Below, piece by piece: positions 45,317 to 63,360 of a stretch of 64,000 nucleotides of DNA (position 1 is its first letter; each line of letters opens with the position of its first letter). The notes under the pieces are model-generated. The model was not told the origin of the DNA. It saw only the letters and a list, made by a program, of their open reading frames with translations, and did not search any database. The position numbers and the translations under genes are program-made. Source of the stretch: an uncultured Phycisphaeraceae bacterium (GTDB lineage Bacteria; Planctomycetota; Phycisphaerae; Phycisphaerales; UBA1924); contig CAZXGL010000019.1 in NCBI GenBank assembly GCA_964640595.1, forward strand, positions 5,075 through 69,074, given 5' to 3'.

Positions 45317-45341
45317 AAAAGAAAAAGCCCCGAAACGGGGC
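45317..45341 (-). terminator. rho-independent terminator after tRNA-Pro
   Basis: Minus strand reads GCCCCG-ttt-CGGGGC followed by TTTTTCTTTT. Confidence 0.7.
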
Positions 45342-45351
45342 CTTCATTGAA

Positions 45352-45482: not shown

Positions 45483-48400
45483 TCAGAGCGGGAGTTCCTT
45501 GAAGAGGACGATACGCGGCGCGTCGGTGGGCTCGATGACATTGGAGCGATCGATGACCATCAGGTAACGGCGTTTGAAGGAGGGGACCAGGGGATCCTCG
45601 GGGCGGAGGCCGTTGACATCGCTCTCGCGGAAGCCCTGGATGACGAACCAGGCCGCGAAGTAGTCCGAGCGGACGGAGGTGGTATTCATGATGCCCGCGG
45701 CCAGAGCGAGGCGTTCGGCATAGTCGTCCTCGGTCACACCGGGCTGGCCGGAGGTGAGCTTGGGATCGATACCGACGCGATCGGTATCCGAACTGCCAGA
45801 TGCACCGAGATTGCGGCCGTCACCATAGTAGGCCTGGATGGTCAGATGGCGGCGCTGGGCGGGAGAGAGAGATGTGTCACGCTCGTCGATGGAGACGGCG
45901 AGGAGTTCACCGAGCGAGGCAAACATGGGAGAACCTCGCAGACCGGGGATGCCGGAGATGGTGGCGCGTTCGACGGCGGTACCGCTCTGCTCCGATCTCA
46001 AGTTCGTGGCAAGCTGGAAGGTGTTCCCTTGGGGTGGGAGATAGCTCAGCGGCTGGGCTGGGTCAAATGATCTCGCACGCGGTGTGGCGACCATGCGGTC
46101 GCGATAGGCCGCGATGCCAGCCGCAGCATCGGGGTTATCAGCGATGGTACTCGGCTGAAGCTGAGCGACATTCAACTCGGAAGCGTTTGCAATGCCGGAC
46201 TGAGCCGCCCACCATTCGGGGGCCAGTGTGCCGCTGGATTCACTGGCACGGTAGGGCTGAGCACTAGGGCTCAGGCCGGGGAGCAGACGGAGCACCTTGA
46301 GCGGAGCCGTCTGGACATTGACCAGCCCCATGACGGGACGGGTCAAGGGCAGGAGGTCTTTCTTATCCGGGGGAAGAGTGGCATCACCTGGCAGTGCAAG
46401 TACATCGAAGGGGCGGAGTTGGTCGATCACGGTGAGGGCCAAGGGAACCCCTGCACCACGACGGAAATCACCAGCCAAACTCTGATCGCTGGTGAAGACT
46501 GGACGGCCGGTAGAGCCAGTCTCATTGGTGGGACGGATGACATTCAGGAAGGGGACATAGTCATCCAGGCGGAGGTGGAGATTGTCGAGGACATACTCGT
46601 TCGGCCTCGTCGGACCAGCACCTGGGGTTTGGCGGACGGCATCAAACCAGACATGATTGGCGGCCTCCGGCTCGGATGAGAACGGCGCATTGCTTTCATA
46701 ACCGAATGCCATCGCAAAGGCCTCGGTCAGTGTCATCCACTCCGAATCCTCCAGTTCCGCGCTGGTGGGGTCTCGGGTGATATCCGGTGCCCATGTGGGA
46801 CCAATTCCCATTGACATCAACGCATCACCGATGCGGCTCGCATTGGCGTTGCTGCCAAGCACGATCTCCGGATTGAGATTGTCGGATTGCAGCGTGTGAA
46901 ACACATGATTGGATCCAAGTCCGATCCGTTCAAAGCGATCCCCAACGGTGGCGTCTTGCCTGTTATCCGATTTTTGGAAGGGGCTCTTTGCAATGGACGG
47001 AACGACACGATAAGTCGCGGCCGACCCGAGACCGCGATTAATCAAATTCATGGGGTGATAAGCCAGATCATATCGATCCTGATTGGTTCTGCGACGACGG
47101 ACCGTCGTAGTGGTGTATGACGGATCCGCCCCTTCCGTGCACACTTCGAAGAAAAGGCTGATATCAAGCTGATCATCAAACGCCTGTTCGATCGCGCCCG
47201 GATGGCCCGCCTTGTTTGTCTTACGGATCCAAGTGAGATCCGGCTGGGTTCGAGACTGAATCATCCACGGATAAATGACACCGGGATTATTGATGTTCTC
47301 GCCGTCAGCCGCCAAATGATCTCGCCTGCGAACAGTCGCCCATCGCATGACACTCAATCCTGCGTTATCATTGCGTGGCGAGCAGTCGTCCCTGCTGTTG
47401 TTGAAATTTTCCTGGAATGAAACTGTGCCTGTGATTCTCCCATCACCCGATCCGTCCAGAGCAACATCCAGATATGAAGTGCCCGAGGACTGATCACCAA
47501 GGAAGAGACGATCGACAAGAATGTCGTTCTGGACAATGTTGCGACGACTTCCGCGGGGATGGGTCTGAAGGGAAAAGTCCGTGGCTTCCTCGTAGTTGCC
47601 GGACTGAGGTTGCTGTTCATCAACAAGTGTGAACTTACGCCACAAGCGAACCTGATTAGGCTGCGGATCGCGTCCGGTCACTGTGGAAAGAGTTCCGGGA
47701 GTGCCAATGATATCTGCGAACTGTGGATTGGTATCCGCATCGCCGGTACGCGGGTCCACAAGCCGCCCGGAGGTCGGATCAAAGGCGTGGATGCGGACCC
47801 CGGGACCATCCCCCATGACACTGAGTTGGTTCTCGATCCATTCCTGAGCGAGACCCGTCCAGCCCTTGCTATCTCCTCCATCAATGAGCCCATCGTTGTC
47901 GTGGTCATTGCTTGGGTCCGTGAACTGAGTTGGGAGAGGATCGCCGTAGGAAGTGGCAACACGGTTCCACTTGAACTCAAGCCCTGTCGGATCGTTCACA
48001 TCATGGCCCTCGAACCGGGCGTGGGACATCGCATAGAAAACGCGCGTCTGACCGGGAGCCAGAATGATATTGCGGTACTGAAACTCTTCGTAGGTCCGAT
48101 CCAAACGCTCACCCGGATTCGGAATCAAACTCGAGTTTCCGCCAGCCTCATTGATTTGTGTCACCTCATCAGGGCCGAATCCGTCGGCCGAATCCGCGGA
48201 CGGAGTGTACTCCCAGAACTCGCCAAGCTTGAAGTACCGTCCGTTATATTCGATGTAGTAATCAAACTGAAGATTATTGTTGTGATTAAAATGATTCCCA
48301 TTGTCCCCCACACGCCACATGATGTCGCGCGGGCCTACATCTTCAGCCCGTCCACCAAGCGAGATCGCCACATCCCAAGGGTTATGAATCTGGAATGCAA

Positions 48401-51296
48401 CAACCGAGGCGAGAAGATCCGAGTTCGTCTCGCTTACACTGCCCTGAATGGTAACCTGGGTGGCACCTACAACCGGAATAGGCCTGCCATCAACGGCGGT
48501 GAAGTAATCCGGGTCCCCACCCGCGCCAACGGAAGCATCAGTATACACATAGAACGACGCGACCTCCGTGATAACCGGCATGGCATCAACGCCAAACACA
48601 TTGACTGCCTGCCGTTGCGCGGGCATGGGCGGATTCTGGGTGGTAGGCGCAAGAACCCACTGGTTCTCGTCGCGACGATTTGCTTCATAAGAATTATCAG
48701 AATCCTGGGCATCAACATCGAATCGTGTCTTTCCGCCAACCAAACCTGGATAGAAGATCGCCAAACGATTCTGAGCAATGAACGGATCAAAATCCCTCCG
48801 TCCACTCTCATCTCGGAGATTTTGGCGAAGCGTTCGGTAATCGTTGGAGTCGCCAAACTGGTTGCTGAGAACGAGTGTGGCGACGGTGGGTCTGGGATCG
48901 TCGCTATATCTGGTCTTCATGTTGACCGCTGAGTGGGCCGCGATGCGCAGAGCCAGTTCCGGGCCGCGGTGGGCGTAGAAGAGCGTGGCATAGGGCGAGT
49001 CGCGGACGGCGGTCAGGTCGGAACGCCAGATCTGGTTCAGAATACCGGCGTTGGGGCCGTCCTGGGGGCCTTGCCGCTTGAAGCGGTACGCTTCCAACTC
49101 ACCCGCCAGGGCGCTGTAGAACACTTTGAACGCATCGTTGGCGCTCTCGCTGACCTGCTTCAAAGTGACGGCAGCCTCTGCGATCGTCAAGGGCTGAACG
49201 CTTGCGGGAAGGGGATCCGCCGATGCGCCGCCGGGGGAACGGACGGCGGGACCGGCAACGGATTTGGGCACGAGGGGAACCGCCCCGCTCAGGGGGGTAA
49301 GAACCGTTCGGGGTGACAGTTCGGCCAGGGCCAGCGTCTGCTGGGCGATACGGCCGTCGATGATGCGCGGGCGGTTGGGGTTGGCATCGGTTCGAATGTG
49401 AGCGTGGCGGTCACGATCGATCGTGAGCGGACGGGTGCTCATCAGCGGGGAATAACGCTCCTGACCCTCGCCGGAGTCGTAGCGACCGAGGGCGTTGTGC
49501 TCGAGGCGGCTGGTGACATCGGGGTCGTTCAGGCCGTGGTAGGTGAGCAGTTCGGCGAGGTCATCGATGCCGTAGAGGCCGAACGGGCGGTCGTCAATGT
49601 CTCGGAAGTACGCCGACTCAAGACCGCCATCCGCGCTGTCGTCGTACGCGCCGAGTGTGCTGAAGCCAAGGCGGGTCGGGTCAGCCCGACCGATTCTCAA
49701 ATAGGATTCAGCCCGCCCGCCCGCATAAAAATCAAACTGACTCGTCGGATCCTCTCTCTGTCGTTGGAGTTGGCTGCCCTCGTAGAGCAAGTATGGCTCT
49801 TCGTTCGGGGGGAACTGCGTGCGGGCACCCGCGAAGGCTTGCGAAAGCGTCGTGTGCTGCTCCATGCCGCGGCGGATGCCGGCCGCCGCATAACGGCCGA
49901 CAAGCATGGCGTTGGAATCCGGGTCGAGCAGACGCGGGGAGTTGCCGTCCGAGATATGGGAGTAGTTGGTGTAATCGCCCTCAGCACGAAGTTGCTGATT
50001 GTTGCCGGTGCCCTGGATGCGTCCTGGTTCCCACAGGCTGGCAAATGACAGGGGTTGACGCGGGATCACGAAGTCGATCGAGTCGTACTCCTCCGCGATG
50101 TCCTGCATGCTGAGCAGGCGGCGCAGGTCGATCTCCGCGGGGGTCAGGCCCAGAGGATATCTCTGTGTCGGAGGTGTGACACCCTCAATGGCCGTGTTGA
50201 CATTCACCATCGAGGAGAGGTCGATGATGCGGGCGGCTGCAAAGACGCGGTACTCGCTGTCGTCGTAGAACCGTTCGATGTCGTTGCGCTGGCCGCTGGT
50301 GGGCGAAGGGGTGCGGGCGGCGGTCAGCTCGAACCAGCGCGAGTCATACATGCCGTCGCCATCGGCATCGGCCCACTGGTAAGGGGCGAAGTCCGGGTCG
50401 TTCAGCAGCAGATTGGGCTGGGATCCGGCGACCTGTCTGTTGCGGTTATAGATGACGAATGAAGGGTCGGAGGGCAGGAAAGCGAATCGCTGGAACATGG
50501 TGAACACGGCGGGGGTGTTCAGGTAGTCCTGCGGGTTCATGAAAACAGGCTGGGTCTCGTTGTAGCCTGGAATCCATGTGCCGCCGAGCGTCATCGGGGA
50601 GATGGACTGGACGGGCGAGTCCGCCCGGTTGGGGTTGAGCAGTTGGAAGATGGTGAGATTTTCACTCATGCGGCCACTGCCCACGCCGGGCTGGGCGCGG
50701 AAGTTGCCGCGGAGATTGACGAGGTTGACGAAGCGGCCGTCGGGCGCGATGTTGGTGATCTGGTACCAGTCGCGGTTGTCCAAGTAGGCGCGGGTCTGGT
50801 CACCCTGGGTCAGAATCCGCAGGGTCGGGTGACCCAGGTAGGTCGGGCGGGTGGTTGCCAGCCAGGAATCGGACGCGACGCGGGGATCATCGGTATTGGT
50901 GTTGCGCGGGAAGGGAAACTGATTGTGGCCGGCGGGATTGAAACGACGCCAGAGTTCGTTGGTCTCCGAACGCTGAGTCCAGTCCGTCCACGGAGCATCG
51001 GTGGTGATGCGACGGGGAATTTGGTACTGGCGTTCCGCGTCAACGGGCTGCAGAAGAGCATCAAGCCTGTTGATGGCGATCGTACGGGCTATGTGCTCTT
51101 TGTGCGCGTCGGTGATTTCCGCCAGATTGGCGCGTTCACGCACCGTCGATGCGGAACGGCGGTCATTCTGGCCCACCGCGATATAGATGGCGGCGAACAC
51201 GGAGATGAGTGCCAGCGTGCCGATGACGATGATGAGGGCCGAGCCCGGGCGCGTGGCGCTGGTCAGACCGTTCCGAGTTGCTGCCGAGGACCGCAT
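45483..51296 (-). CDS. giant (1,937 aa) GspK/PilX-like terminal pseudopilin with a very large inserted region
   Basis: ATG 51296 with AGGGAG RBS 6 nt upstream. N-terminus RPGSALIIVIGTLALISVFAAIYIAV (GspK type). C-terminal VNVQTAPLKVLRLLPGLSP is the GspK helix-hairpin-helix-like signature. DxDxDG loops: DADGDGMYD and DHDNDGLIDGGD. A continuous GC3-biased ORF. Confidence 0.75.
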   Translation of the reverse strand: MRSSAATRNGLTSATRPGSALIIVIGTLALISVFAAIYIAVGQNDRRSASTVRERANLAEITDAHKEHIARTIAINRLDALLQPVDAERQYQIPRRITTDAPWTDWTQRSETNELWRRFNPAGHNQFPFPRNTNTDDPRVASDSWLATTRPTYLGHPTLRILTQGDQTRAYLDNRDWYQITNIAPDGRFVNLVNLRGNFRAQPGVGSGRMSENLTIFQLLNPNRADSPVQSISPMTLGGTWIPGYNETQPVFMNPQDYLNTPAVFTMFQRFAFLPSDPSFVIYNRNRQVAGSQPNLLLNDPDFAPYQWADADGDGMYDSRWFELTAARTPSPTSGQRNDIERFYDDSEYRVFAAARIIDLSSMVNVNTAIEGVTPPTQRYPLGLTPAEIDLRRLLSMQDIAEEYDSIDFVIPRQPLSFASLWEPGRIQGTGNNQQLRAEGDYTNYSHISDGNSPRLLDPDSNAMLVGRYAAAGIRRGMEQHTTLSQAFAGARTQFPPNEEPYLLYEGSQLQRQREDPTSQFDFYAGGRAESYLRIGRADPTRLGFSTLGAYDDSADGGLESAYFRDIDDRPFGLYGIDDLAELLTYHGLNDPDVTSRLEHNALGRYDSGEGQERYSPLMSTRPLTIDRDRHAHIRTDANPNRPRIIDGRIAQQTLALAELSPRTVLTPLSGAVPLVPKSVAGPAVRSPGGASADPLPASVQPLTIAEAAVTLKQVSESANDAFKVFYSALAGELEAYRFKRQGPQDGPNAGILNQIWRSDLTAVRDSPYATLFYAHRGPELALRIAAHSAVNMKTRYSDDPRPTVATLVLSNQFGDSNDYRTLRQNLRDESGRRDFDPFIAQNRLAIFYPGLVGGKTRFDVDAQDSDNSYEANRRDENQWVLAPTTQNPPMPAQRQAVNVFGVDAMPVITEVASFYVYTDASVGAGGDPDYFTAVDGRPIPVVGATQVTIQGSVSETNSDLLASVVAFQIHNPWDVAISLGGRAEDVGPRDIMWRVGDNGNHFNHNNNLQFDYYIEYNGRYFKLGEFWEYTPSADSADGFGPDEVTQINEAGGNSSLIPNPGERLDRTYEEFQYRNIILAPGQTRVFYAMSHARFEGHDVNDPTGLEFKWNRVATSYGDPLPTQFTDPSNDHDNDGLIDGGDSKGWTGLAQEWIENQLSVMGDGPGVRIHAFDPTSGRLVDPRTGDADTNPQFADIIGTPGTLSTVTGRDPQPNQVRLWRKFTLVDEQQPQSGNYEEATDFSLQTHPRGSRRNIVQNDILVDRLFLGDQSSGTSYLDVALDGSGDGRITGTVSFQENFNNSRDDCSPRNDNAGLSVMRWATVRRRDHLAADGENINNPGVIYPWMIQSRTQPDLTWIRKTNKAGHPGAIEQAFDDQLDISLFFEVCTEGADPSYTTTTVRRRRTNQDRYDLAYHPMNLINRGLGSAATYRVVPSIAKSPFQKSDNRQDATVGDRFERIGLGSNHVFHTLQSDNLNPEIVLGSNANASRIGDALMSMGIGPTWAPDITRDPTSAELEDSEWMTLTEAFAMAFGYESNAPFSSEPEAANHVWFDAVRQTPGAGPTRPNEYVLDNLHLRLDDYVPFLNVIRPTNETGSTGRPVFTSDQSLAGDFRRGAGVPLALTVIDQLRPFDVLALPGDATLPPDKKDLLPLTRPVMGLVNVQTAPLKVLRLLPGLSPSAQPYRASESSGTLAPEWWAAQSGIANASELNVAQLQPSTIADNPDAAAGIAAYRDRMVATPRARSFDPAQPLSYLPPQGNTFQLATNLRSEQSGTAVERATISGIPGLRGSPMFASLGELLAVSIDERDTSLSPAQRRHLTIQAYYGDGRNLGASGSSDTDRVGIDPKLTSGQPGVTEDDYAERLALAAGIMNTTSVRSDYFAAWFVIQGFRESDVNGLRPEDPLVPSFKRRYLMVIDRSNVIEPTDAPRIVLFKELPL

Positions 51297-51465
51297 CGAT
51301 CGCTCCCTTGTGCCCCGATTCCACGGGGTTGATTGCACCGTTCCATCCAAAGCCCTTGACCGACCATCCGCCGCGCGGTGCCGCGGTGGAGGTGTATGCC
51401 GGTCCGTCCCCGTCTCGTATCCGATCACCCGCGTGTGCTGGCTGTGCCGTTCGTTCCTTCGTTTC

Positions 51466-53316
51466 TCATGACTGGTCACCCGGGACCGCGAAGACGAACT
51501 GGTAAGTCCGCTCCAGCGTGGGGTCGTTCGGGTCGGCCAGGGACATGGTGATCCGGATGAACTTGGGCCAGGGGATGTATGTCTGGGTGCTGGCCAGGCC
51601 GAAGACCGCAACCTCCGGGGCGGTCAGTTCGGAAAGGCCCGGTCCGGCGGGGACCACCTGGTCACGAATCGGATCGTTGGGGCGGGGCGGGTTGGGGCTG
51701 TTAGGTGGGTTAGGTCGTGGGTCGTAACGCAGTGCGACACTCTCGTCAAGATCCCCGTTCACAGTGGCGTGATCGTCAAGATCGATTCGTCCGTCGCCGT
51801 TCCAGTCCCGATCGGCACGCGGCAAGCCATACCAAAGCACCTGCTTGTAGTGTGGCTCATTCTGGCCGACACCCTCATTCAAGAACCCGTATGACCACTC
51901 GACGATGAACTCTGAGCAGCGCGGCACGAAGACTTGTGAACCAAGCATCTCCTGATTGGCTTCGGAGATGGAACGGGCCAAACGCCCGGGATTGTTGTCC
52001 GTGAAGCGGCCCGGCTCGAAGATCAGGCGGGTGGGCAGGTCTTCGTAACGGACACCAGAGAGATAACGAGGCGGATTCTCCTCTCCGGCCCAGAGGCTGG
52101 GGAGCATGTCGAGCGCCCAGGCACGGATATGCGGTTGGTGCGTATCGAGGTTCAGGCTGCCTGCACTCCGCGGGTTGGGGGTGCCGCCAGGGCTTGACCA
52201 AGCCACACGGAAACCATCGGCGGACTGGTTGTTGCGAGCCGGACGGGGAGCGGTGGGGTTGAGCGATGCGGGCGCGTAATACTCGCTCGGAAAGATACCC
52301 GCCCCGGCGAGGGCTTCGAGCTCGCGGCGGACACCGAGGATGGAACCTTGGGCGATGTCCACCACGCCGCTGGCACGCCACGCGGGAAGGGAGCGGTCAG
52401 TGGGCGATTGGCCGCCACCAAAGTTGGCGGTGTCGCCGATCCACCAGCGACTGAGACCATCTGCTGGCGTCGTGCCGGGTGGCCCGGATGTCATGGTGGG
52501 GTCGGTCCACGAGAGGCTATTGAAGATGGAACGGGCCGCGGGCTGCATGGCGATCTGACGCGCGGAATCGAGCATCAGGGTGCGGTCCTGGAGTCGCTGG
52601 CGTTGGAGACCGTAAAACTCGTTGGGGATGGCCGAGACCGATTGGGGCTCGGCAAGCAGGGTGATCTGGCGGAGCAACGACCAGTCCTGGGCGTAGCGAT
52701 TGGGATTGGGCAGAGCACCGACCGGCTCCGGGCGGCCAAGCAGGGCGCGATGGGCCGCCTGCCAGCCCTGCCCAGGGCGGGCGGGCAGCAGGTTCGGGTC
52801 GCGTGGACTGGGGTTGAAGTAAAAGTTGCTGGGGTTGTCCACATTCGAGAAGTCGATGGGTCGCTTCTGCCCGATGCCCAAGTAGATGGCGGCCTCACCC
52901 GAGGTGGCCACCATGCCGGGAGCAAGGGTGGGCCGCTGAGTCTGGAACGGGCCACGAGCGAAGAACATGAGTTCATCGACGCGGCGGGCGCGGCCGGTGC
53001 GGTCCTGTGGAGACAGGCGGACACCGTTGTTAGTTGTATCCGTGGAAAACACGGTACCCTGTTCGTCCGCCGCGTAGCGGTTGGCGATGACGAGGAAGCC
53101 GTCGCGTGAGAGACGGGAGAGATCTTCACGGATCTGCTGCTCGATCCGCGCGGCGGCGCGGTTGATCTCGCTGACACGCCGCCCCTCGCTGACCGCATCG
53201 CCGACGGACCCGAAGATCACGGACAGTCCGGTGGCGATGATGGCCACAATGGCGATCGCCACGAGCAGCTCGACGATCGTGAAGGCGCGGCGCGGGATGT
53301 GGGTGCCGATCCGCAC
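51466..53316 (-). CDS. large (616 aa) PilW/GspJ-like minor pseudopilin
   Basis: N-terminus RRAFTIVELLVAIAIVAIIATGLSVIF. C-terminal DRDWNGDGRIDLDD loop. Confidence 0.75.
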   Translation of the reverse strand: MRIGTHIPRRAFTIVELLVAIAIVAIIATGLSVIFGSVGDAVSEGRRVSEINRAAARIEQQIREDLSRLSRDGFLVIANRYAADEQGTVFSTDTTNNGVRLSPQDRTGRARRVDELMFFARGPFQTQRPTLAPGMVATSGEAAIYLGIGQKRPIDFSNVDNPSNFYFNPSPRDPNLLPARPGQGWQAAHRALLGRPEPVGALPNPNRYAQDWSLLRQITLLAEPQSVSAIPNEFYGLQRQRLQDRTLMLDSARQIAMQPAARSIFNSLSWTDPTMTSGPPGTTPADGLSRWWIGDTANFGGGQSPTDRSLPAWRASGVVDIAQGSILGVRRELEALAGAGIFPSEYYAPASLNPTAPRPARNNQSADGFRVAWSSPGGTPNPRSAGSLNLDTHQPHIRAWALDMLPSLWAGEENPPRYLSGVRYEDLPTRLIFEPGRFTDNNPGRLARSISEANQEMLGSQVFVPRCSEFIVEWSYGFLNEGVGQNEPHYKQVLWYGLPRADRDWNGDGRIDLDDHATVNGDLDESVALRYDPRPNPPNSPNPPRPNDPIRDQVVPAGPGLSELTAPEVAVFGLASTQTYIPWPKFIRITMSLADPNDPTLERTYQFVFAVPGDQS

Positions 53317-53319
53317 GGG

Positions 53320-54468
53320 TTACTCCTGTGGCCTGTCCAGCGTGAAGACGCGGACCGCGACGGGGGGCTGGGGGGTGAAGATGATCTGGAGGTTCTGCCG
53401 AGGCAGGTCCTGGCTTCGAGAGAAAGGGGGATCAACGATGATGGCCCGTGCGGCGTTGTCCGTGTTCTGGCCGCGAACCGCCGTAGGCGTCCCAACGACC
53501 CGACGAACGACCCCGAGGCTGTCCACGAAAGTCTGGCCCGGACGACGCAGGAACTCGATTGAAGTATTGAAGTTCTGGTTGTTGACATCCACACCCAGCA
53601 TCAACCAGGAAGGATCGGTATTGCGATCCACATAGGCGGGCAGGGACATGATCTCCGGATATGCGAGCGAGTTCGATGCACCATCGTCCGTCGTCAGACG
53701 ACCGGTGTCGACTGCGATCGCCAGAGGCAGAATGGGACGCGAACGGTTGCGCCCAAGGAACGCGTCGCCGAGCGTCTCATTGGCATTTAGTCGAATGCGA
53801 TCGTCGATGCGGCGGACGAAGATGGCAACCTGAACCTTGCCCTCGGGCGTGCGCCGGAACACCGGATCCCAGACGAACTGGGGCGGGGAACCGGAAGTGG
53901 GCAATGGGTACACACGGGCCGCGACGGGTAGTTCGAAACGTTTGACCTGGTTGAGCGTGTTCAGCGTCCAGCGCCCGTTGTTGAGGTATCCCGGGCGAAT
54001 GTGTTCAAGATTCTCGCCACCAGTCCCCAAGGCAGCGGCACCGGAGACCATCCAGTTCGTGGTATACGCGGGGTTGGTCGGGCTGACCGGTCGAGCACTG
54101 TCGCCCGGTCCCGGCGGACGCGGATCGCCAACCCCGAAAAGCCAGTAGCCGTACTGAGGATCGCGTGCCCACAGCCCGAACTTTTCAACTGCCGCACGGG
54201 CGTTGCGCGGGGTGTTGGAGATCGAACGGTCAAGCCCGAAGCGAAAAGCTTCGGAGTTGGTTCGCATCTGCTCCTGCACCGCCGCCGCCAGCGATTCACC
54301 GGAGATCGAATCAAACGAGCGGCGCTGCTCGGCAATGACGGCCGGGAACACGGCACCCAGACCCAGCAGGCCCAATGCAAGAACGAGAATCGCGATGAGC
54401 ACTTCGATCAGAGAGAACGCCCGGGGGGGCGGGTTGGCACACTGGAGGGAGGGGGTGTGGGGAATCAT
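53320..54468 (-). CDS. large (382 aa) PilV/GspI-like minor pseudopilin
   Basis: N-terminus PRAFSLIEVLIAILVLALGLLGLGAVFP (PilV signature). ATGA overlap with the upstream gene. Confidence 0.75.
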   Translation of the reverse strand: MIPHTPSLQCANPPPRAFSLIEVLIAILVLALGLLGLGAVFPAVIAEQRRSFDSISGESLAAAVQEQMRTNSEAFRFGLDRSISNTPRNARAAVEKFGLWARDPQYGYWLFGVGDPRPPGPGDSARPVSPTNPAYTTNWMVSGAAALGTGGENLEHIRPGYLNNGRWTLNTLNQVKRFELPVAARVYPLPTSGSPPQFVWDPVFRRTPEGKVQVAIFVRRIDDRIRLNANETLGDAFLGRNRSRPILPLAIAVDTGRLTTDDGASNSLAYPEIMSLPAYVDRNTDPSWLMLGVDVNNQNFNTSIEFLRRPGQTFVDSLGVVRRVVGTPTAVRGQNTDNAARAIIVDPPFSRSQDLPRQNLQIIFTPQPPVAVRVFTLDRPQE

Positions 54469-55733
54469 CGCAGCACCTCCGTCAGATCGCCCGTGGCGGG
54501 CCGGACCAGATAAATCCGTGCCTGCGGCTGGTCCTCGTCGTCGATCACACCATCGTTGTTGGTATCCCCGTCAAGCCAACGGTTGATGCGCTGGCGGAGT
54601 GCATCCATATTGATCGCGTTGGTGAAAAGATCCGGATCGATCTCATTACCAACCTGGTTCGAACCTCGCACGACCGGGCGGTACAGGCTGTTCGTCGTTG
54701 CGTTGAGCCGGCGGGCACCCAGGTCCCGGGCCATCACCCGTTCGTCGTAGACGGCGATGCGCGTCACGGGCTTGACCAATACGGTGTCATTGGAGGACAT
54801 GCCGATGAAGGAAAGCCGCGTGTCGTCCGAGGCCTCCGTCAGCGGCGGACGCACGCGATCTCCGTTCGCATTGATGGGGGGCGACGCGATCATGCCGCGT
54901 GCCCAATCACCCAGGTTCTCGGCGCGATCCGGACGCAGCCATCGCTGAGTGGCCACCGGGCGGGCTCCGCCCGGCCGATTGACCGTGCTGGGACGCGGGT
55001 CGATGAACAACGCGGGGCTGCGGTCGCTGCTGATCGCGCCGGTGGCCGAATCAAAGCGGATCATGAACGACTGACGGGCCGTTCTGGCATTGGGGCCGGA
55101 CCCAGCCGCGGGCTGGTCGATGTCGTAAAACGCGGTTTCCGGGAAGACCCAGTTGCCCTCAAGCTTGGCACGCTCGGTGACAGTGGTTCCGCCGTACATC
55201 GCCGAGTTGTACCAGATCGCCAGATCCTCACGCGGGCGCTGGCCGGGCACATACTCCAACATGGAGTTGGCCGGCGCATAGCCACGGACATTCCAATAGG
55301 CGGGCATCTGGAAAGCAACGGCCTGCGGGACCGGAGCAAACACATCGCGCCGGACGCGAGGCATGCCTCCGACAGAGGTTGGACCACTGCTGGGGCCACC
55401 GGCACCAAACACCGGTTCGAGCAGCGTCCCGACACGCACCGCCGGGATGATCCGCATCGTTCCATCGCGGTCGTAAATGAAGACCACAGCGCCGTCGTCA
55501 CCGCTTGCCGAGCGCAGGGCCAACTCCCGCGCGGCCAGCACCGCCGCATTGACCGTGTTGGCCGATTCCGATCGGGCCGCGGAGTACAGCATGGACTGGA
55601 AAGCGGGCGTGGCCACGGTCAGCACGATCAGGATGATGACCACGACGACCAGCAGCTCCACCACGGTGAAGGCGCGGGCACAGAGCCGCGAACCTGCGGG
55701 GCGATGCACTGAATGGATGGTTTGAATCGACAT
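54465..55733 (-). CDS. large (422 aa) GspH/FimU-like minor pseudopilin
   Basis: ATG 55733 forms a TGATG overlap with the upstream stop. N-terminus ARAFTVVELLVVVVIILIVLTVATPAFQS. C-terminal DGDTNNDGVIDDED loop. Confidence 0.7.
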   Translation of the reverse strand: MSIQTIHSVHRPAGSRLCARAFTVVELLVVVVIILIVLTVATPAFQSMLYSAARSESANTVNAAVLAARELALRSASGDDGAVVFIYDRDGTMRIIPAVRVGTLLEPVFGAGGPSSGPTSVGGMPRVRRDVFAPVPQAVAFQMPAYWNVRGYAPANSMLEYVPGQRPREDLAIWYNSAMYGGTTVTERAKLEGNWVFPETAFYDIDQPAAGSGPNARTARQSFMIRFDSATGAISSDRSPALFIDPRPSTVNRPGGARPVATQRWLRPDRAENLGDWARGMIASPPINANGDRVRPPLTEASDDTRLSFIGMSSNDTVLVKPVTRIAVYDERVMARDLGARRLNATTNSLYRPVVRGSNQVGNEIDPDLFTNAINMDALRQRINRWLDGDTNNDGVIDDEDQPQARIYLVRPATGDLTEVLR

Positions 55734-56899
55734 CAGTTCCCCAGCCCCACAATGTTGTCTTCCCACGCCATTTTGCGCAGGCGGATGATGTCCGCCTCGG
55801 TTGTCGCGGCCTGCCCGAGCACCTGAGCAATGTGCTCGATCGACTCCGTGCCGAAGAGTCCGTTCGGACCGGCGCTGACGATGGCATAGCGGGCCGAACG
55901 GAGTTCGACGCTGCCGGCGGTCAGGTCGATGTCCCGCGCGTCCGCACTGCCGTCGGCATTCCGGACACGGGCGTAGACCTCGGGATTGATAAGCACGGGG
56001 GGGATGTTCAGGTCCAGGCTGTTCTGGACCACCAGACGCCCATTCACCAGACGGCCCGGCTCCCAACGGTAATAGCGGAACGCGCGTCCCCACGGATCGA
56101 CGAAGGCCGCGTGCGAATCAGGCACCGTGTCCGCGGCGGGCATCGTGGCGTTGTGCTCCGCATAGTCGGCGCGGTGCTGATACCCGGTCACGAGACGCAA
56201 GGACTGACGATTGGTATCGATCACCGGCTCATAGCGGTCACGGGGGGTTCCCACCCGGGCCGCACGGAGCAGCACGCCCTCAAACTGGCCGTTGAAGAGC
56301 GGACGGGACATGCCCGGCCCCTCGACGCCGTCCACCGCACGCCCGCCGATGCCGCTGAGGTAATAGGGCAGCGAGAACTTGCTGTAGCGACGATCCTCCC
56401 ACGCGGACGCGATGTTCCAGGCCGTGCCAGCAGGCAGGCGGACCGCATCCGTCCCGGGACCAACGCGGCGGCGGATGAAGTTGCCGTAGCTGTTGTAGCT
56501 ATTGATGGTGCCGTCCGACTCGGACCACACCGCGAGCTGATCGACCGACAACCCCCCCACACTCCGACGCACCACGGGCCAACCCGCCTGCGAGCCAACC
56601 GCGGGAAGCCCCTCCGGCGCGTATCCGTCGGAGGCCATGGCCTGTCCATCATGGATCAGCGGCGGCAGGAAACCAAACTCGGCCTTGAACTGATCGACCC
56701 CCGTGACCAGCGCCCCCACCGCCCGCTCGCCCACCGAGGCGCGGGCCTTGCCCACGCTGCGGGCCAAACCCGCGAGCAGCAAACCTGCGATGACCAGGAT
56801 CACCGCGAGCACAACCAGCAGCTCGATCAGCGTGAAACCCGTCCGGGTCGCGGGGCGGTTCCGAGTTGTCTGAGCGGCTGATTGCACGCCGTCATCCAT
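55733..56899 (-). CDS. large (388 aa) GspG-like (major?) pseudopilin
   Basis: RTGFTLIELLVVLAVILVIAGLLLAGLARSVGKAR...VDQFKAEFGFLPP is GspG-like at the N-terminus. I use ATG 56899; the track start at 56938 is TTG. Confidence 0.7.
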   Translation of the reverse strand: MDDGVQSAAQTTRNRPATRTGFTLIELLVVLAVILVIAGLLLAGLARSVGKARASVGERAVGALVTGVDQFKAEFGFLPPLIHDGQAMASDGYAPEGLPAVGSQAGWPVVRRSVGGLSVDQLAVWSESDGTINSYNSYGNFIRRRVGPGTDAVRLPAGTAWNIASAWEDRRYSKFSLPYYLSGIGGRAVDGVEGPGMSRPLFNGQFEGVLLRAARVGTPRDRYEPVIDTNRQSLRLVTGYQHRADYAEHNATMPAADTVPDSHAAFVDPWGRAFRYYRWEPGRLVNGRLVVQNSLDLNIPPVLINPEVYARVRNADGSADARDIDLTAGSVELRSARYAIVSAGPNGLFGTESIEHIAQVLGQAATTEADIIRLRKMAWEDNIVGLGN

Positions 56900-56942: not shown

Positions 56943-58235
56943 CTACTGGAGCGACTCGATCATCTTGACCATGGGGAGGAACATCGCCACGACGATGGTG
57001 CCCACCATGCCGCCCAGCACGACGACCATGAGGGGTTCGAGCAGCGACACAAGCGACTCGACCGCGACATCGACCTCTTCGTCGTAGTTGTCGGCGATCT
57101 TCATGAGCATGGCATCCATGTCGCCGGTCTCCTCACCAACATCGATCATGTTGACCACGATGGCGTCGCAGGTCTTGGACTCGCGCAGCGGGCCCGCGAA
57201 GCTCTCGCCCTCGCGGATCGAGTCGTGGACTTTCTTGAGAGCCTTCTCGTAGACATAGTTGCCCGAGGTTTCGGCGGTGATCGTGACCGCTTCGAGGATG
57301 GGCACGCCCGCACCGATGAGGGTGCCCAGCGTCCGGGTGAAGCGGGCAATGGTCGTCTTGCGGATCAGCTTGCCGAAGATGGGGGTCCAGAGCAGCAGCA
57401 CATCGATGGCTGCCCGACCCGGAGGGGTCTTTCGGAGCAGCTTGTATGCGATCGGGATGGCAATGAGGATGCCGACAACCGTCACCGCGCCCTGACCCAT
57501 GAACTGGCCCGGCTGGGTTCCGGCCATCCAGGACGAAGTCTCCATGAGCCACAGCGTCAGGCCGGGCAGCTCGACCTCGAAGTCCTTGAAGATATCGGTG
57601 AACTTCGGGATGATGAACACCATGATGAAGGTCAGGATGATCACCGCGATCAGGATGACCACAACCGGGTACACCATCGCGCCCTTGATCTTGCGCTTCA
57701 GGCGTTCGCTCTTCTCCATGAACTCGGCAAGACGCTGGAGGATCAGGTCCAGCACGCCGCCGATCTCACCGGCGTTGACCATCTTCACATAGAGATGGTT
57801 GAAGGCCTTCGGGAACTTGCCCATGGATTCGGAGAGCGAGCTGCCGCCCTCGACTTCCTCGGACACACCCATCAGCACGGACTTCATCTTGCCCGGCTTC
57901 TGCTGGCTCTCAAGGATCTGCAACGAGCGCAGCAGCGGCAGGCCGGCGTCCTGCAGGGTGGAGAGCTGGCGGGTGAACAGGGTCAAGGCCTTTGGCTTGA
58001 CGCGACCGAAGCTCATGCCGCCGCCGGCCTTCTTCTTCTTGGACTTCTTGGCTCCGGTGGCCGCCTCGGCGGCCCCCTTGCCCTTGGACTTCTTCTCCTT
58101 GACCGGCTGGACCGAGGTCGGGAAGTAGCCCTGGGCCTTGATCCGCTGCAGCGCTTCCTCGCTGCTGGCGGCCTCGATCGTGCCCTTCTGGGTCTTGCCC
58201 GAGGCGTTCAAAGCCTGGTAGGAATAGGTCGCCAT
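56943..58235 (-). CDS. pilC: type IV pilus / T2SS platform protein (PilC/GspF family), second copy
   Basis: MATYSYQALNASGKTQKGTIEA...FTRQLSTLQDAGLPLLRSL...MVNAGEIGG. It has a Lys-rich insert after the first 45 aa. Confidence 0.9.
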   Translation of the reverse strand: MATYSYQALNASGKTQKGTIEAASSEEALQRIKAQGYFPTSVQPVKEKKSKGKGAAEAATGAKKSKKKKAGGGMSFGRVKPKALTLFTRQLSTLQDAGLPLLRSLQILESQQKPGKMKSVLMGVSEEVEGGSSLSESMGKFPKAFNHLYVKMVNAGEIGGVLDLILQRLAEFMEKSERLKRKIKGAMVYPVVVILIAVIILTFIMVFIIPKFTDIFKDFEVELPGLTLWLMETSSWMAGTQPGQFMGQGAVTVVGILIAIPIAYKLLRKTPPGRAAIDVLLLWTPIFGKLIRKTTIARFTRTLGTLIGAGVPILEAVTITAETSGNYVYEKALKKVHDSIREGESFAGPLRESKTCDAIVVNMIDVGEETGDMDAMLMKIADNYDEEVDVAVESLVSLLEPLMVVVLGGMVGTIVVAMFLPMVKMIESLQ

Positions 58236-60202: not shown

Positions 60203-61327
60203 TTAGTTGATGTCCTTGGAAGCCTCAGGATCATCCAACTCAGGACGCCCGATCACCCCGCCCGCCTGATGGACACGCGTCCGGAGATCACCCGGGTTCT
60301 TGCACTTGTCGATCATCTCTTCCGCCGAGATCATGCCCCGGCTGTAGAGCGACCAGAGGTGGTCATCCAGCAACTGCATGCCGTACTTCTTGCCTGTCTG
60401 GATGGCCGAGTCGATTCGGAACGACTTGTTGTCACGGATCAGGTTCGCGATGGCGGGGGTTACCACCAGGAACTCATACGCCGCCACCATGCCCTTGGTG
60501 TCAATCCGACCCATCAGCACCTGGGACAACACCGCAATCAGGGCCGTCGAAAGCTGGACCCGGATCTGGTTCTGCTGGCTCACGGGGAAGGCGTCCACCA
60601 GACGGTCAATGGTCTTGGCAGCACCCGTCGTGTGGAGGGTTCCGAACACCAAGTGGCCGGTTTCCGCCGCTCGGACTGCCGCCTCGATCGTCTCGAGGTC
60701 GCGCATCTCACCGACCAGAATTACATCAGGGTCCTGTCGCAGGGCTCGACGCAGGGCCTCGGCGAAGCTGGGCACATCGTTGCCCACCTCACGCTGGTTC
60801 ACGACGGATTTCTTATGGGCATGGTAATACTCGATGGGGTCTTCCATCGTGATGATGTGCCGGTCGAAGTGCATGTTGACATAGTCAATCATGGTGGCCA
60901 GCGAGGTCGTCTTTCCTGAGCCGGTTGGCCCGGTGATCAGGAAAAGCCCGCGGGGACGCCGGATCAGGTCCCGGCACATCTCCGGGAGACCGATCTGCTC
61001 AAAGGTCAGCAGGCGGTTGGGGATCTGACGGAGGACGATGGCCAAGTCGCCCTTCTGGCGGAAGACCGACACACGGAAGCGGGCCGCTTCGCCGTAGGCG
61101 AAACCGAAGTCGGTGCCGCCCTCTTCCTGGAGTTCCTGCTGGTTGCGTTCCGGCGTGATGGCCTTCATGAGCGAGACCATGTCATCCGAATCGAGCACCT
61201 TGGTCTGTAGGTTGCGCAGTCCGCCGTGGAGTCGGATGGTGGGCTGCCGCCCCACCGTCAGGTGAAGGTCGGACCCGCCGGTCTTGACCACGGTGTCGAG
61301 CAAACGGTCGATCTGAACGGTGGACAT
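60203..61327 (-). CDS. pilT: twitching-motility retraction ATPase PilT
   Basis: Sequence includes GSDLHLTVGRQPTIRLHG...GPTGSGKTTSLA...GEMRDLETI...TGHLVFGTLHTT...AIANLIRDNK. Confidence 0.92.
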   Translation of the reverse strand: MSTVQIDRLLDTVVKTGGSDLHLTVGRQPTIRLHGGLRNLQTKVLDSDDMVSLMKAITPERNQQELQEEGGTDFGFAYGEAARFRVSVFRQKGDLAIVLRQIPNRLLTFEQIGLPEMCRDLIRRPRGLFLITGPTGSGKTTSLATMIDYVNMHFDRHIITMEDPIEYYHAHKKSVVNQREVGNDVPSFAEALRRALRQDPDVILVGEMRDLETIEAAVRAAETGHLVFGTLHTTGAAKTIDRLVDAFPVSQQNQIRVQLSTALIAVLSQVLMGRIDTKGMVAAYEFLVVTPAIANLIRDNKSFRIDSAIQTGKKYGMQLLDDHLWSLYSRGMISAEEMIDKCKNPGDLRTRVHQAGGVIGRPELDDPEASKDIN

Positions 61328-63112: not shown

Positions 63113-63360
63113 CCGGGGCGATCCTCCAAGGGGGGAAGGGAACTTCAAGGCTGCCCAAGCGAACGGCCGAGGCATCGGAGACGGCCGATCCGAAAAACGG
63201 TCCGGGGCCGACATGGTAGGGTCGGGTCGGGTCCGGGTCGTCGCGGGCGAGTCCCCACGGGCGCACAATGCCCGTCCCACCCCCCACCCCCCATACGATT
63301 CACGCCCGACCCCTGTTCCCCGGTGCCACACCACACCGAACCACAAAGCCAGGACACCCC

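What the first reader, a model, noticed from the sequence alone, without database searches (positions are those of the whole stretch)
45483..56899. Hyper-expanded pseudopilin operon ending in a 1,937-aa GspK-like giant
Five consecutive minus-strand ORFs each open with a prepilin-type leader plus hydrophobic helix: RTGFTLIELLVVLAVILVIAG; ARAFTVVELLVVVVIILIV; PRAFSLIEVLIAILVLALGLLGLG; RRAFTIVELLVAIAIVAIIATG; GSALIIVIGTLALISVFAAIY. Their N-terminal signatures follow the canonical order G, H/FimU, PilV/I, PilW/J, K/PilX. The proteins are 388, 422, 382, 616 and 1,937 aa, several-fold larger than textbook pseudopilins (roughly 120-330 aa). The last protein keeps GspK hallmarks at both ends: a GspK-type N-terminus, and a C-terminal VNVQTAPLKVLRLLPGLSP motif at about 46266-46322. 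More than 1,500 aa therefore seem to be inserted into a GspK scaffold. The genes are translationally coupled (TGATG at 55733, ATGA at 54465-54468). A tip complex of this mass is not part of described T2SS/T4P models. It could be a filament-displayed adhesin or enzyme platform.
Basis: partly seen in the sequence, partly recalled or inferred. Interest (0 to 1): 0.8.

Follow-up and report, generated by a model that had tools for sequence, protein, structure and literature searches.

The report
Giant pilus-tip protein operon in Phycisphaerales
A conserved operon in Phycisphaerales bacteria encodes five pilin-like proteins that are 2.5 to 6 times the usual size, ending in a 1,937-residue relative of the pilus-tip subunit GspK/PilK, so these bacteria probably build a retractable filament with an unusually massive, still uncharacterised tip.

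Summary
Five consecutive minus-strand genes (388, 422, 382, 616 and 1,937 aa) follow PilB-PilT-PilB-PilC genes. All quoted N-terminal strings, the HhH motif position and the TGATG/ATGA overlaps check out.

The first four proteins carry a prepilin motif with an invariant Glu5. The giant has a GspK-type N-terminus without Glu5.

The giant is not an assembly artefact. Full-length relatives (about 1,440-2,700 aa) occur in at least 196 species-level genomes. Almost all are Phycisphaerales, and the operon order is the same in every locus inspected.

Single-model searches see only weak GspK/HhH signals. When the giant's conserved blocks are concatenated, they align collinearly with nearly the whole GspK profile (hhalign probability 94-97%, E 1e-7 to 5e-10; random interior blocks give E of at least 0.07).

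I read it as a GspK/PilK-class apical minor pilin. About 1,600 extra residues are inserted at several sites, and it keeps a highly conserved C-terminal strand block.

AlphaFold models were poor, and nothing identifies the fold or function of the inserts. An adhesin or capture role is therefore inference.

All relatives are annotated "hypothetical", with no Pfam family. This is a new, extreme variant of a known kind.

The parts
61397..63214 (-). PilB/GspE-type assembly ATPase 1, with an MshE-type c-di-GMP-binding N-terminal motif
   Evidence: Pfam T2SSE 1.8e-120 plus MshEN. NCBIfam PilB 7e-167 and GspE 7e-160, both just under cut-off. The c-di-GMP motif passes its cut-off.
60203..61327 (-). PilT/PilU-family retraction ATPase
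   Evidence: TIGR01420 scores 446.5 bits against a cut-off of 319.1.
58294..60024 (-). PilB/GspE-type assembly ATPase 2
   Evidence: Pfam T2SSE 2e-132 plus MshEN. NCBIfam PilB 1.5e-183 and GspE 1.1e-182.
56943..58235 (-). PilC/GspF platform protein
   Evidence: Pfam T2SSF 4.6e-65, two stretches. NCBIfam GspF 3.6e-118 and PilC 5.7e-117.
55733..56899 (-). p1: a 388-aa GspG-like prepilin (G|FTLIE, Glu5). Candidate major subunit or first minor subunit.
   Evidence: N_methyl 23.1 bits, above the 21.2 cut-off. GspG is the best family in 25/25 orthologues, over the N-terminal 60 aa only. The PDB profile matches only alpha1 of major pilins.
54465..55733 (-). p2: a 422-aa prepilin in the H/FimU position. 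Its start overlaps the p1 stop (TGATG). It carries a DTNNDGVID loop at aa 390.
   Evidence: The N-terminus matches PpdD-like, Verru_Chthon D, GspH and ComGD families about equally. Motif.
53320..54468 (-). p3: a 382-aa PilV/GspI-position prepilin. Its start overlaps the p2 stop (ATGA).
   Evidence: TIGR02523 PilV 7.5e-10, the best family in 25/25 orthologues. Junction.
51466..53316 (-). p4: a 616-aa PilW/GspJ-position prepilin. It carries a DWNGDGRID loop at aa 504.
   Evidence: N_methyl 27.3 bits. GspJ is the best family in 17/24 orthologues. Motif.
45483..51296 (-). Giant: a 1,937-aa (214 kDa) GspK/PilK-class protein
51183..51251 (-). Giant residues 16-38: RPG|SALIIVIGTLALISVFAAIY. This is a GspK-type class III signal and alpha1N without Glu5.
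   Evidence: Consensus RRGSALLIVIGTLALI with invariant G18 S19 A20 V24 G26. hhalign against GspK covers the N-terminal 66 columns.
50325..50381 (-). Giant residues 306-324: YQWADADGDGMYDSRWFEL, a DxDxDG-type putative Ca2+ loop. It is among the most conserved blocks (74% identity).
   Evidence: Calcium binding is inferred from the motif only.
50190..50249 (-). Giant residues 350-369: RVFAAARIIDLSSMVNVNTA. It is the counterpart of the GspK strand plus D-x4-N-x-N motif that opens the first SAM-like subdomain.
   Evidence: Aligned to GspK 'WQLRDAQHCFNLNAL' in the collinear hhalign. Invariant R350 F352 R356 D359 L360 N365 N367.
46377..50039 (-). Giant residues about 420-1640: the main inserted region (about 1,220 aa). 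It is beta-rich between 897 and 1467, and its fold is unidentified.
   Evidence: No Pfam, NCBIfam or PDB sequence hit. AlphaFold pLDDT is 60-94 only for residues 897-1467. Foldseek against PDB gives no hit with E at or below 0.001.
46092..46346 (-). Giant residues 1651-1735: the second helix-hairpin-helix (SAM-like) subdomain, LTRPVMGLVNVQTAPLKVLRLLPGLSP ... PDAAAGIAAYRDR.
   Evidence: NCBIfam GspK profile positions 207-260. HHH_3 in 15/23 and T2SSK in 5/23 members. hhalign probability 79-82%.
45486..45716 (-). Giant residues 1861-1937: the C-terminal strand block (SVRSDYFAAWFVIQGF ... RRYLMVIDRSNV ... PRIVLFKELPL). This is the most conserved part of the protein and the candidate in-cis C-terminal beta-strand.
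   Evidence: 60-76% identity across 28 homologues. Aligned to the GspK C-terminal strands up to position 322/333. DSSP strands at 1912-1916 and 1928-1932 in a low-confidence model.
45323..45345 (-). Terminator-like hairpin (10 pairs plus a T tract), about 140 nt after the giant's stop codon. Probable end of the operon.
32243..33679 (-). Prepilin peptidase-like gene (478 aa), outside the reported interval. Candidate processing enzyme.
   Evidence: Pfam A24_N_bact 4.1e-31.

Best explanation
The region is the pilin half of a conserved Phycisphaerales type IV filament operon: PilB, PilT, PilB, PilC, then five pilin-like genes in the order G, H, I(PilV), J(PilW), K(PilX).

The 1,937-aa protein is the K-class apical minor pilin. 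It has a GspK-type N-terminal helix without Glu5. It has the two NxN/helix-hairpin-helix subdomains of the GspK alpha-domain. It also has a highly conserved C-terminal strand block.

About 1,600 additional residues are inserted at several points. The largest insert (about 1,220 aa) lies between the two HhH subdomains.

By analogy with GspIJK and with PilIJK plus PilY1 complexes, the giant would fold in the periplasm. It would complete its own pilin sheet with its C-terminal strand. It would then recruit p3/p4 and p2 to prime polymerisation on the PilC platform, driven by the PilB ATPases. It would end up as the cap of a filament that PilT can retract.

The inserted mass would then be displayed at the tip as a binding or capture module.

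Shown here: homology class, gene order, conservation, and absence or presence of Glu5.
Inferred: processing, tip location, priming role, retraction, and any adhesive or catalytic function.
For: 1. Gene content and order are established. PilT passes its curated cut-off.
2. Glu5 is invariant in p1-p4 and absent in the giant. This is the hallmark of K-class subunits (PMC13533445).
3. 21 of 23 family members hit NCBIfam T2SS_GspK, best E 1.5e-7. 15 of 23 hit HHH_3 and 5 of 23 hit T2SSK.
4. In profile-profile comparison, motif-guided core segments align with GspK 3-322/333 at 96.6% probability, E 5.4e-10. Blocks chosen purely by conservation give 94.3-95.6%, E 1e-7 to 1e-8. Five random collinear interior block sets give E 0.08-0.65. 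The signal is additive over the N-helix, the first NxN motif, HhH2 and the C-terminal strands.
5. The most conserved parts of the protein are the blocks that map to the GspK core, above all the last 77 residues.
6. Full-length conservation holds in more than 360 proteins and at least 196 species genomes, with the operon order the same in every locus inspected. A C-terminal profile finds 370 representatives (one per 50%-identity cluster) at E at or below 1e-30, nearly all 1.5-2.7 thousand aa.
7. No PilY1-like gene lies in the operon. This fits the class in which the K subunit supplies the C-terminal strand in cis.
8. A prepilin peptidase gene lies 12 kb away.
Against: No curated HMM threshold is met. 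The window protein scores 14.7 bits against a cut-off of 130 for GspK.

The HhH motif on its own is generic and also occurs in ComEA-like and EEPD1 proteins.

Both AlphaFold half-models were poor (mean pLDDT 55.6 and 49.6). They give no confident pilin fold at either end. Foldseek found no GspK or any other match.

The concatenation test is an in-silico deletion construct, not a natural sequence.

No secretin or PilMNOP genes are in this operon. It is unclear how a 214-kDa cap plus 42-68-kDa partners would cross the outer membrane.

No expression, processing or localisation data exist for these proteins.
Confidence: 0.65

Rival explanations
1. The cluster is a T2SS-like secretion machine. The five proteins form a short periplasmic pseudopilus that never leaves the cell. 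The enlarged subunits and giant tip act as a piston head or substrate-docking platform for exoproteins.
For: The gene order E-F-G-H-I-J-K is the T2SS order, and the best family matches are GspG, GspJ and GspK. The ATPase and platform proteins score equally well as GspE/GspF. A tip that stays in the periplasm removes the problem of passing through a secretin.
Against: A PilT-family retraction ATPase passing its curated cut-off sits inside the cluster. Classical T2SS lack PilT. p3 prefers PilV over GspI. No GspC, D, L or M genes are in the operon or the window.
Confidence: 0.2
2. The giant is not a filament subunit. It is a bitopic inner-membrane or periplasmic protein anchored by its N-terminal helix, for example a scaffold, regulator or enzyme. 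On this view it merely shares HhH modules with GspK and is co-transcribed with the pilins.
For: There is no N_methyl hit and no Glu5. The HhH similarity is generic. No confident pilin fold was obtained. Its size is without precedent for a pilin.
Against: The similarity to GspK is collinear over the N-helix, both NxN/HhH modules and the C-terminal strands, not HhH alone. Without HhH2 the probability is still 88.8%. Absence of Glu5 and of an N_methyl match is normal for K-class subunits. The gene always occupies the K position.
Confidence: 0.1
3. The filament is a DNA-uptake (competence) pilus, and the giant's ComEA-like helix-hairpin-helix modules are the tip DNA receptor.
For: HHH_3 (the ComEA-type motif) is found in 15/23 members. 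Thermus ComZ is a large tip minor pilin proposed as a DNA receptor (PMC6561018). PilT is present.
Against: The same HhH/SAM-like modules are structural parts of every GspK, where no DNA role is known. No ComEC, ComEA or DprA genes are adjacent. The idea does not explain about 1,500 residues of non-HhH sequence.
Confidence: 0.07
4. The giant ORF is an assembly chimera, or a fusion created by a frameshift.
For: The gene has lower GC (59.7%) and GC3 (0.69) than its neighbours.
Against: Full-length, end-to-end alignable homologues of 1,830-2,230 aa come from many independent assemblies, including closed chromosomes. Invariant residues are spread along the whole length.
Confidence: 0.01

Closest known systems
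GspK / XcpX, the apical minor pseudopilin of type II secretion systems (E. coli GspIJK, PDB 3CI0, as described in PMC13533445 and PMC8179133)
   Same: It is the last gene of a G-H-I-J-K series. It has the N-terminal RG|xALLIVL helix without Glu5. It has two NxN/HhH (SAM-like) subdomains inserted in the pilin sheet, and C-terminal strands supplied in cis. The collinear profile match covers GspK 2-322/333.
   Different: It is 1,937 aa against about 330 aa. There are about 240 extra residues before the first NxN motif and about 1,220 between the two HhH subdomains, plus smaller inserts. It scores far below the curated GspK and T2SSK thresholds. It sits in a cluster with PilT and without GspC, D, L or M.
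PilX/PilK plus PilY1/PilC tip adhesin of type IVa pili
   Same: It is a minor-pilin set in H-I-J-K order next to PilB/PilT/PilC-type genes. It implies a large (over 1,000 aa) protein mass at the tip. DxDxDG-type loops recall the EF-hand-like Ca site of PilY1; this comparison is from my own knowledge and was not tested.
   Different: Here the large mass is part of the K subunit itself. It is not a separate non-pilin protein docking by a C-terminal strand in trans. There is no PilY1 beta-propeller signal by Pfam or Foldseek.
CpaL (Caulobacter Tad pilus) and ComZ (Thermus competence pilus)
   Same: Both are K-like tip subunits in which an adhesin or receptor module sits between the pilin-like domain and a C-terminal strand that completes the sheet in cis (PMC13533445; PMC6561018; PMC8179133).
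   Different: Those proteins are about 550-600 aa with one inserted module. The giant is more than three times larger and keeps the GspK-type HhH alpha-domain. No sequence similarity to them was detected.
Modular type IV pilins (S. sanguinis PilB/PilC; InterPro survey in PMC8179133)
   Same: The principle is the same: a pilin carrier with a grafted functional module, probably exposed at the tip.
   Different: The survey's most extreme case was 860 residues, and its modules were recognisable domains attached C-terminally. Here the extra sequence is inserted, carries no domain signature, and all five pilins of the operon are enlarged.
Verru_Chthon cassette (NCBIfam TIGR02596-TIGR02600) of Verrucomicrobia
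   Same: It is another cassette from the PVC superphylum (Planctomycetota, Verrucomicrobiota, Chlamydiota), pairing prepilin-type proteins (B, C, D) with a protein A. p2 orthologues hit protein D in 23/25 cases, and 2/23 giants hit protein A weakly.
   Different: The matches are N-terminal only or marginal (E 0.025). The relationship was not resolved here, and no literature was found.

Membership tests
GspK/PilK-class apical minor (pseudo)pilin | Class III signal-like N-terminus with a hydrophobic alpha1N and no Glu at +5 | tested here: met
   RPG|SALIIVIGTLALI; +5 is Ile/Val throughout the family. hhalign N-terminal match to GspK over 66 columns.
GspK/PilK-class apical minor (pseudo)pilin | Last gene of an H-I-J-K minor pilin series | tested here: met
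   Window order. The same order holds in 18/18 loci inspected, and four prepilin ORFs lie upstream in 53/80 loci by a strict motif.
GspK/PilK-class apical minor (pseudo)pilin | Curated family HMMs (NF037980 T2SS_GspK; Pfam T2SSK and T2SSK_1st) above threshold | tested here: not met
   14.7 bits against a cut-off of 130. There are no Pfam hits for the window protein. Sub-threshold hits occur in 21/23 (GspK) and 5/23 (T2SSK) relatives.
GspK/PilK-class apical minor (pseudo)pilin | Collinear homology to the whole GspK core (helix, first SAM-like subdomain, second SAM-like subdomain, C-terminal strands) | tested here: met
   hhalign of concatenated blocks against a 29-sequence GspK profile gives 94-97% probability, E 1e-7 to 5e-10, over GspK 2-322/333. 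Random-block controls give E 0.08-0.65. The query is an artificial deletion construct.
GspK/PilK-class apical minor (pseudo)pilin | Pilin fold with an alpha-domain inserted in the beta-sheet, seen in a 3D structure | tested here: inconclusive
   The two half-length AlphaFold models have pLDDT below 50 over both termini. Foldseek found no match.
GspK/PilK-class apical minor (pseudo)pilin | C-terminal beta-strand completing the sheet and docking the I-J dimer | not testable with these tools
   Only indirect evidence exists. The last 77 residues are the most conserved block, and low-confidence strands are predicted there. Testing needs multimer modelling or biochemistry.
Type IV pilin / pseudopilin (prepilin N-terminal cleavage/methylation domain) | G/A|F-x-x-x-E motif plus a hydrophobic helix, matching PF07963 / TIGR02532 | tested here: met
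   p1, p3 and p4 are above the Pfam cut-off, and p2 scores 19.7 against 21.2. Glu5 is invariant in all four families.
Type IV pilin / pseudopilin (prepilin N-terminal cleavage/methylation domain) | Globular alpha/beta pilin domain after alpha1 | tested here: inconclusive
   PDB and NCBIfam profile matches for p1-p4 stop after about 60 residues. No structure prediction was available for them.
Type IVa pilus machinery | PilT-type retraction ATPase together with a PilB-type ATPase and a PilC platform | tested here: met
   PilT scores 446.5 bits against a cut-off of 319.1. PilB/GspE and PilC/GspF are present but ambiguous.
Type IVa pilus machinery | PilMNOP alignment complex and PilQ secretin | tested here: not met
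   Neither is in this operon, and no secretin lies anywhere in the 64-kb window. PilM/N/O-like genes belong to a second cluster at 23.4-25.6 kb. They may be encoded elsewhere in the genome.
Type II secretion system | GspC, GspD, GspL and GspM with GspE-K, and no retraction ATPase | tested here: not met
   No C, D, L or M genes are in the operon or window, and PilT is present.

The most novel reading that the evidence does not exclude
Phycisphaerales may build a distinct class of type IV filament in which every subunit is hyper-expanded, including a roughly 39-kDa p1 acting as the major pilin. The filament would be capped by a tip complex of about 370 kDa (p2+p3+p4+giant). The 214-kDa K subunit would carry a new multi-domain module, with several conserved Ca-loop motifs, that captures polymers or particles and reels them in through PilT-driven retraction. 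This would be a 'fishing rod' for macromolecule harvesting. It would not be an adhesin of the known PilY1 type.
Probability: 0.2. Interest if true: 0.8.

Novelty: new variant of a known kind. Interest (0 to 1): 0.6.

Why it matters
Minor-pilin tip complexes decide when a type IV filament starts to grow and what it binds. The known K-class subunits range from about 150 to about 600 residues.

Here an entire bacterial order keeps a K-class subunit of 1.4-2.7 thousand residues and enlarged partners, all annotated "hypothetical" and without a Pfam family.

If the giant really caps a retractile filament, three consequences follow:
- It sets a new upper size for what the machinery and its outer-membrane conduit can handle.
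- It offers a natural test of the recent "C-terminal strand licenses tip assembly" model, because more than 1,800 residues must fold before the final strand docks.
- It points to an unknown tip function in abundant marine and freshwater Planctomycetota that are often associated with algae and cyanobacteria.

Tried and rejected
1. Pfam, NCBIfam and PDB-sequence searches with the single giant or its full-length profile gave nothing usable. The only hit was a 14.7-bit GspK match.
2. hhalign of the full-length profile against one GspK sequence or against the GspK profile returned only the N-terminal helix, at 22-24% probability. The 1,200-residue insert cannot be bridged by a local alignment.
Only residues about 713-1467 were moderately confident.
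5. Foldseek against the PDB gave no hit with E at or below 0.001 for either model. The fold of the insert is therefore unknown, and the weak beta-sandwich/GH116/CBM3 hits are noise.
6. The search of cluster representatives with a C-terminal profile lists only the best 150 hits, all giants. I could not see whether the weak tail (1,526 hits at E at or below 1e-3) reaches canonical GspK proteins.
7. Assembly artefact or frameshift was rejected.
8. A functional link to the downstream Opp/Dpp-type ABC transporter was considered because the neighbourhood is conserved. A strong terminator-like hairpin separates them, so I treat it as a separate unit.
9. A Phycisphaera metaproteome (PMC7029141) reports abundant type IV pilus proteins, including a 370-aa prepilin-type protein. 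Its gene neighbours do not fit this operon, so it is not evidence for expression.
10. A literature search for the Verru_Chthon cassette found nothing.

Full report
**What is there.** On the minus strand of the window, four machinery genes are followed by five pilin-like genes. The machinery genes are a PilB/GspE-type ATPase (61397-63214), a PilT-family ATPase (60203-61327), a second PilB/GspE-type ATPase (58294-60024) and a PilC/GspF platform protein (56943-58235). The pilin-like genes are p1 (55733-56899, 388 aa), p2 (54465-55733, 422 aa), p3 (53320-54468, 382 aa), p4 (51466-53316, 616 aa) and a 1,937-aa protein (45483-51296). PilT passes its curated NCBIfam cut-off. The other three machinery proteins score almost equally as type IV pilus or type II secretion components, and both large ATPases carry the MshE-type c-di-GMP-binding motif.

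p3 and p4 are 3 nt apart. p4 and the giant are 169 nt apart, with a Shine-Dalgarno-like AAGGGAG before the ATG. A strong terminator-like hairpin (45323-45345) follows the giant. The downstream Opp/Dpp-type ABC transporter genes are therefore probably a separate unit.

**Not an artefact, and not rare.** The giant has more than 360 relatives in the protein collection. The best 120 are almost all full-length (1,830-2,230 aa), align end to end, and have invariant residues spread along the whole length. Every one that carries a name is 'hypothetical protein' from Phycisphaerales/Phycisphaerae, and none has a Pfam domain.

A scan of one genome per species found relatives in 196 genomes. The 80 kept are Phycisphaerales/Phycisphaeraceae or unclassified Planctomycetota MAGs, apart from one or two probably mis-binned records. 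Match lengths correspond to about 1,440-2,360 aa. A profile of the last 338 residues finds 370 representatives (one per 50%-identity cluster) at E at or below 1e-30, and nearly all complete ones are 1.5-2.7 thousand aa.

In all 18 loci I inspected the order is the same: PilT, PilB, PilC, then p1 (about 300-380 aa), p2 (350-440), p3 (315-440), p4 (540-700) and the giant. With a strict motif, 53 of 80 loci show exactly four large prepilin ORFs upstream of the giant. Median sizes after the motif are 369, 406, 365 and 610 aa. Enlargement of all five proteins is thus a stable, lineage-wide trait. Compared with E. coli K-12 GspG-K (145, 169, 125, 195 and 327 aa), they are 2.5 to 5.9 times larger.

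**Which pilin is which.** p1, p3 and p4 pass the Pfam N_methyl cut-off and p2 narrowly misses it. Glu5 is invariant in all four families. Across 24-25 orthologues of each, the preferred NCBIfam family is as follows:
- p1: GspG (25/25, best 5e-10).
- p3: PilV (25/25, 7.5e-10).
- p4: GspJ (17/24, 7e-6).
- p2: no preference among PpdD-like, Verru_Chthon D, GspH and ComGD families.

All of these matches cover only the first 60 or so residues and are below curated thresholds. PDB profile searches likewise match only alpha1 of known pilins. The G, I/V and J/W labels therefore have modest sequence support. The H label rests on position only. The globular parts of p1-p4 (about 300-550 residues each) are uncharacterised.

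**Is the giant a GspK?** Direct searches are nearly blind. The window protein gets one 14.7-bit hit to the GspK model over the HhH motif. Its full-length profile finds nothing in the PDB. Family-wide, however, 21 of 23 relatives hit T2SS_GspK (best 1.5e-7), 15 hit HHH_3 and 5 hit T2SSK.

The N-terminus (consensus RRG|SALLIVIGTLALI, no Glu5) resembles that of GspK (QRG|VALLIVL). By eye, further blocks correspond in order:
- Giant RVFAAARIIDLSSMVNVNTA matches GspK WQLRDAQHCFNLNAL.
- Giant GLVNVQTAPLKVLRLLPGL matches GspK ELSINLNMLTENDIPLF.
- Giant SVRSDYFAAWFV...RRYLMVIDR matches GspK YSRYFTLSTE...IYRRTLQ.

To test this, I built a 29-sequence GspK profile and compared it with concatenated blocks of the 28-sequence giant alignment.
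- Motif-guided blocks (14-100, 340-420, 1640-1740, 1775-1805, 1855-1937): 96.6% probability, E 5.4e-10, 271 columns covering GspK 3-322 of 333.
- Blocks chosen only because they are the most conserved 30-residue windows: 94.3% (E 9.6e-8). Slightly widened, they give 95.6% (E 1.1e-8) over GspK 2-322.
- Five sets of random collinear interior blocks of the same lengths: E 0.08-0.65.
- Without the N-helix: 78.7%. Without the second HhH: 88.8%.

No single generic element therefore carries the match. I conclude that the giant is a homologue of the GspK/PilK class whose core is interrupted by about 1,600 extra residues. About 240 lie between roughly residues 100 and 340, about 1,220 lie between 420 and 1640, and shorter inserts sit within and after the second HhH subdomain. 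The caveat is that the query is an artificial deletion construct, and curated thresholds are not met.

**Structure.** Residues 738-1937 gave mean pLDDT 55.6. Residues 897-1467 were moderately confident and beta-rich, and the C-terminal 400 residues were below 50. Residues 14-1200 gave mean pLDDT 49.6, showing a long N-terminal helix (18-77) followed by two short strands and then little of confidence until about residue 713. Foldseek against the PDB returned nothing with E at or below 0.001 for either model. The three-dimensional test of the pilin scaffold is thus inconclusive, and the insert has no recognisable fold or domain signature.

The only local clues are four DxDxDG-type loops: DTNNDGVID in p2, DWNGDGRID in p4, and DADGDGMYD and DHDNDGLID in the giant. 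They are conserved in the family alignments and look like EF-hand/dockerin-type calcium sites. Calcium binding is inferred from the motif alone.

**How it most likely works.** A 2026 study (PMC13533445) gives the framework. K-class minor pilins invariably lack Glu5 and are the most apical subunit. A short C-terminal beta-strand completes the K sheet and licenses docking of the I-J dimer. That strand is supplied in trans by PilY1/PilC in type IVa pili. It is supplied in cis by GspK, and also by Caulobacter CpaL (about 600 aa), whose adhesin module lies between its pilin-like domain and the final strand. The paper names the Thermus competence pilus as another example.

The Phycisphaerales giant fits the in-cis class:
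- It lacks Glu5.
- No PilY1-like gene lies in the operon.
- Its last 77 residues are the most conserved stretch of the whole protein, at 60-76% identity across relatives that are otherwise 33-40% identical.

I therefore propose the following sequence. After cleavage by the prepilin peptidase (a candidate lies at 32243-33679), the giant folds. It inserts its own C-terminal strand. It recruits p3/p4 and p2. It primes polymerisation on PilC, driven by the PilB-type ATPases. It ends up at the tip of a filament that PilT can retract, with about 1,600 residues of extra sequence exposed.

Whether p1 (about 39 kDa mature, the most conserved of the five) is the major subunit or another minor one is open. 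Everything after 'homologue of GspK in the K position' is inference.

**Rivals.** A T2SS-like periplasmic pseudopilus is the main alternative. It fits the E-F-G-H-I-J-K order and would avoid the problem of moving a 214-kDa cap through a secretin. It does not fit the PilT gene or the absence of GspC, D, L and M. A membrane-anchored non-pilin protein that merely shares HhH modules is made unlikely by the collinear, multi-element match. A DNA-uptake role for the HhH modules cannot be excluded but has no contextual support. An assembly artefact is excluded.

**Context and novelty.** The same window holds a second type IV filament cluster of normal size (19320-28698). It has PilB, PilC, PilM/N/O-like genes, four small pseudopilins and a 390-aa K-like protein with a Laminin_G_3 lectin domain. 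The organism therefore has ordinary pseudopilins as well, and the enlarged set is a distinct system.

Modular pilins are a known idea. The survey in PMC8179133 found more than 1,200 of them, the most extreme being 860 residues. GspK, ComZ and CpaL show that K-class subunits tolerate inserted modules. What is new here is threefold. First, the scale: 1.4-2.7 thousand residues, a 214-kDa cap and about 370 kDa for p2-p4 plus the giant. Second, all partners are enlarged. Third, the family has no annotation, Pfam family or literature that I could find. I rate it a new, extreme variant of a known kind, of moderate-to-high interest. Its function is undetermined.

Noticed in passing
window 19320-28698 (minus strand): A second type IV filament cluster of normal size. 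It holds PilB/GspE (26788-28698), PilC/GspF (25562-26791), PilM-like (24519-25565), PilN/O-like (23944-24573, 23396-23947), a small pilin (22131-22742) and three small pseudopilins (21505-22134, 21011-21505, 20489-21007). It ends in a 390-aa K-like protein (19320-20492; N-terminus RQGSVYLAILVV without Glu5) carrying a Laminin_G_3 lectin domain. That last protein is a modular tip pilin in its own right.
   Followed up: partly
window 32243-33679 (minus strand): A prepilin peptidase-like gene of 478 aa, long for this family. Only the A24_N_bact N-terminal domain was reported at E at or below 1e-5, and there was no NCBIfam hit at 1e-6.
   Followed up: no
window 54566-54592 (p2 aa 390-398), 51781-51807 (p4 aa 504-512), 50343-50369 and 47880-47906 (giant aa 310-318 and 1131-1139): Four DxDxDG-type (EF-hand/dockerin-like) putative calcium loops are spread over three of the five proteins. 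They are conserved in the family alignments.
   Followed up: partly
window 45483-56899: The giant gene has lower GC (59.7%) and GC3 (0.69) than its neighbours (62-67% and 0.73-0.90). All five pilin-like proteins are very poor in lysine (0.5-1.1%), against 8.8% in PilC.
   Followed up: no
window 36500-45392 (minus strand): An Opp/Dpp-type peptide ABC transporter lies directly downstream of the giant: a family-5 binding protein, three permeases and two ATPases. It also lies there in many related loci, but is separated from the giant by a terminator-like hairpin at 45323-45345.
   Followed up: partly
window 7637-8494 (+) and 11527-12375 (-): A stand-alone 285-aa protein with a prepilin N_methyl motif, and a PilZ-domain protein. 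These are further pilus- or c-di-GMP-related genes outside the two clusters.
   Followed up: no
P0015; locus L077: Two relatives of the giant are filed under cyanobacterial names (Nodularia spumigena, Leptolyngbya sp. PLA1). They are most likely Phycisphaerales contigs from non-axenic cyanobacterial cultures that were mis-assigned.
   Followed up: no
literature: PMC7029141 supplement: A Phycisphaera sp. bin from a Synechococcus culture shows abundant type IV pilus proteins in its metaproteome. These include a 370-aa, 41.7-kDa prepilin-type protein (RNC81353.1), about the size of p1. However, the nearby accession RNC81356.1 is a phosphoserine aminotransferase, so it is probably not this operon.
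   Followed up: partly
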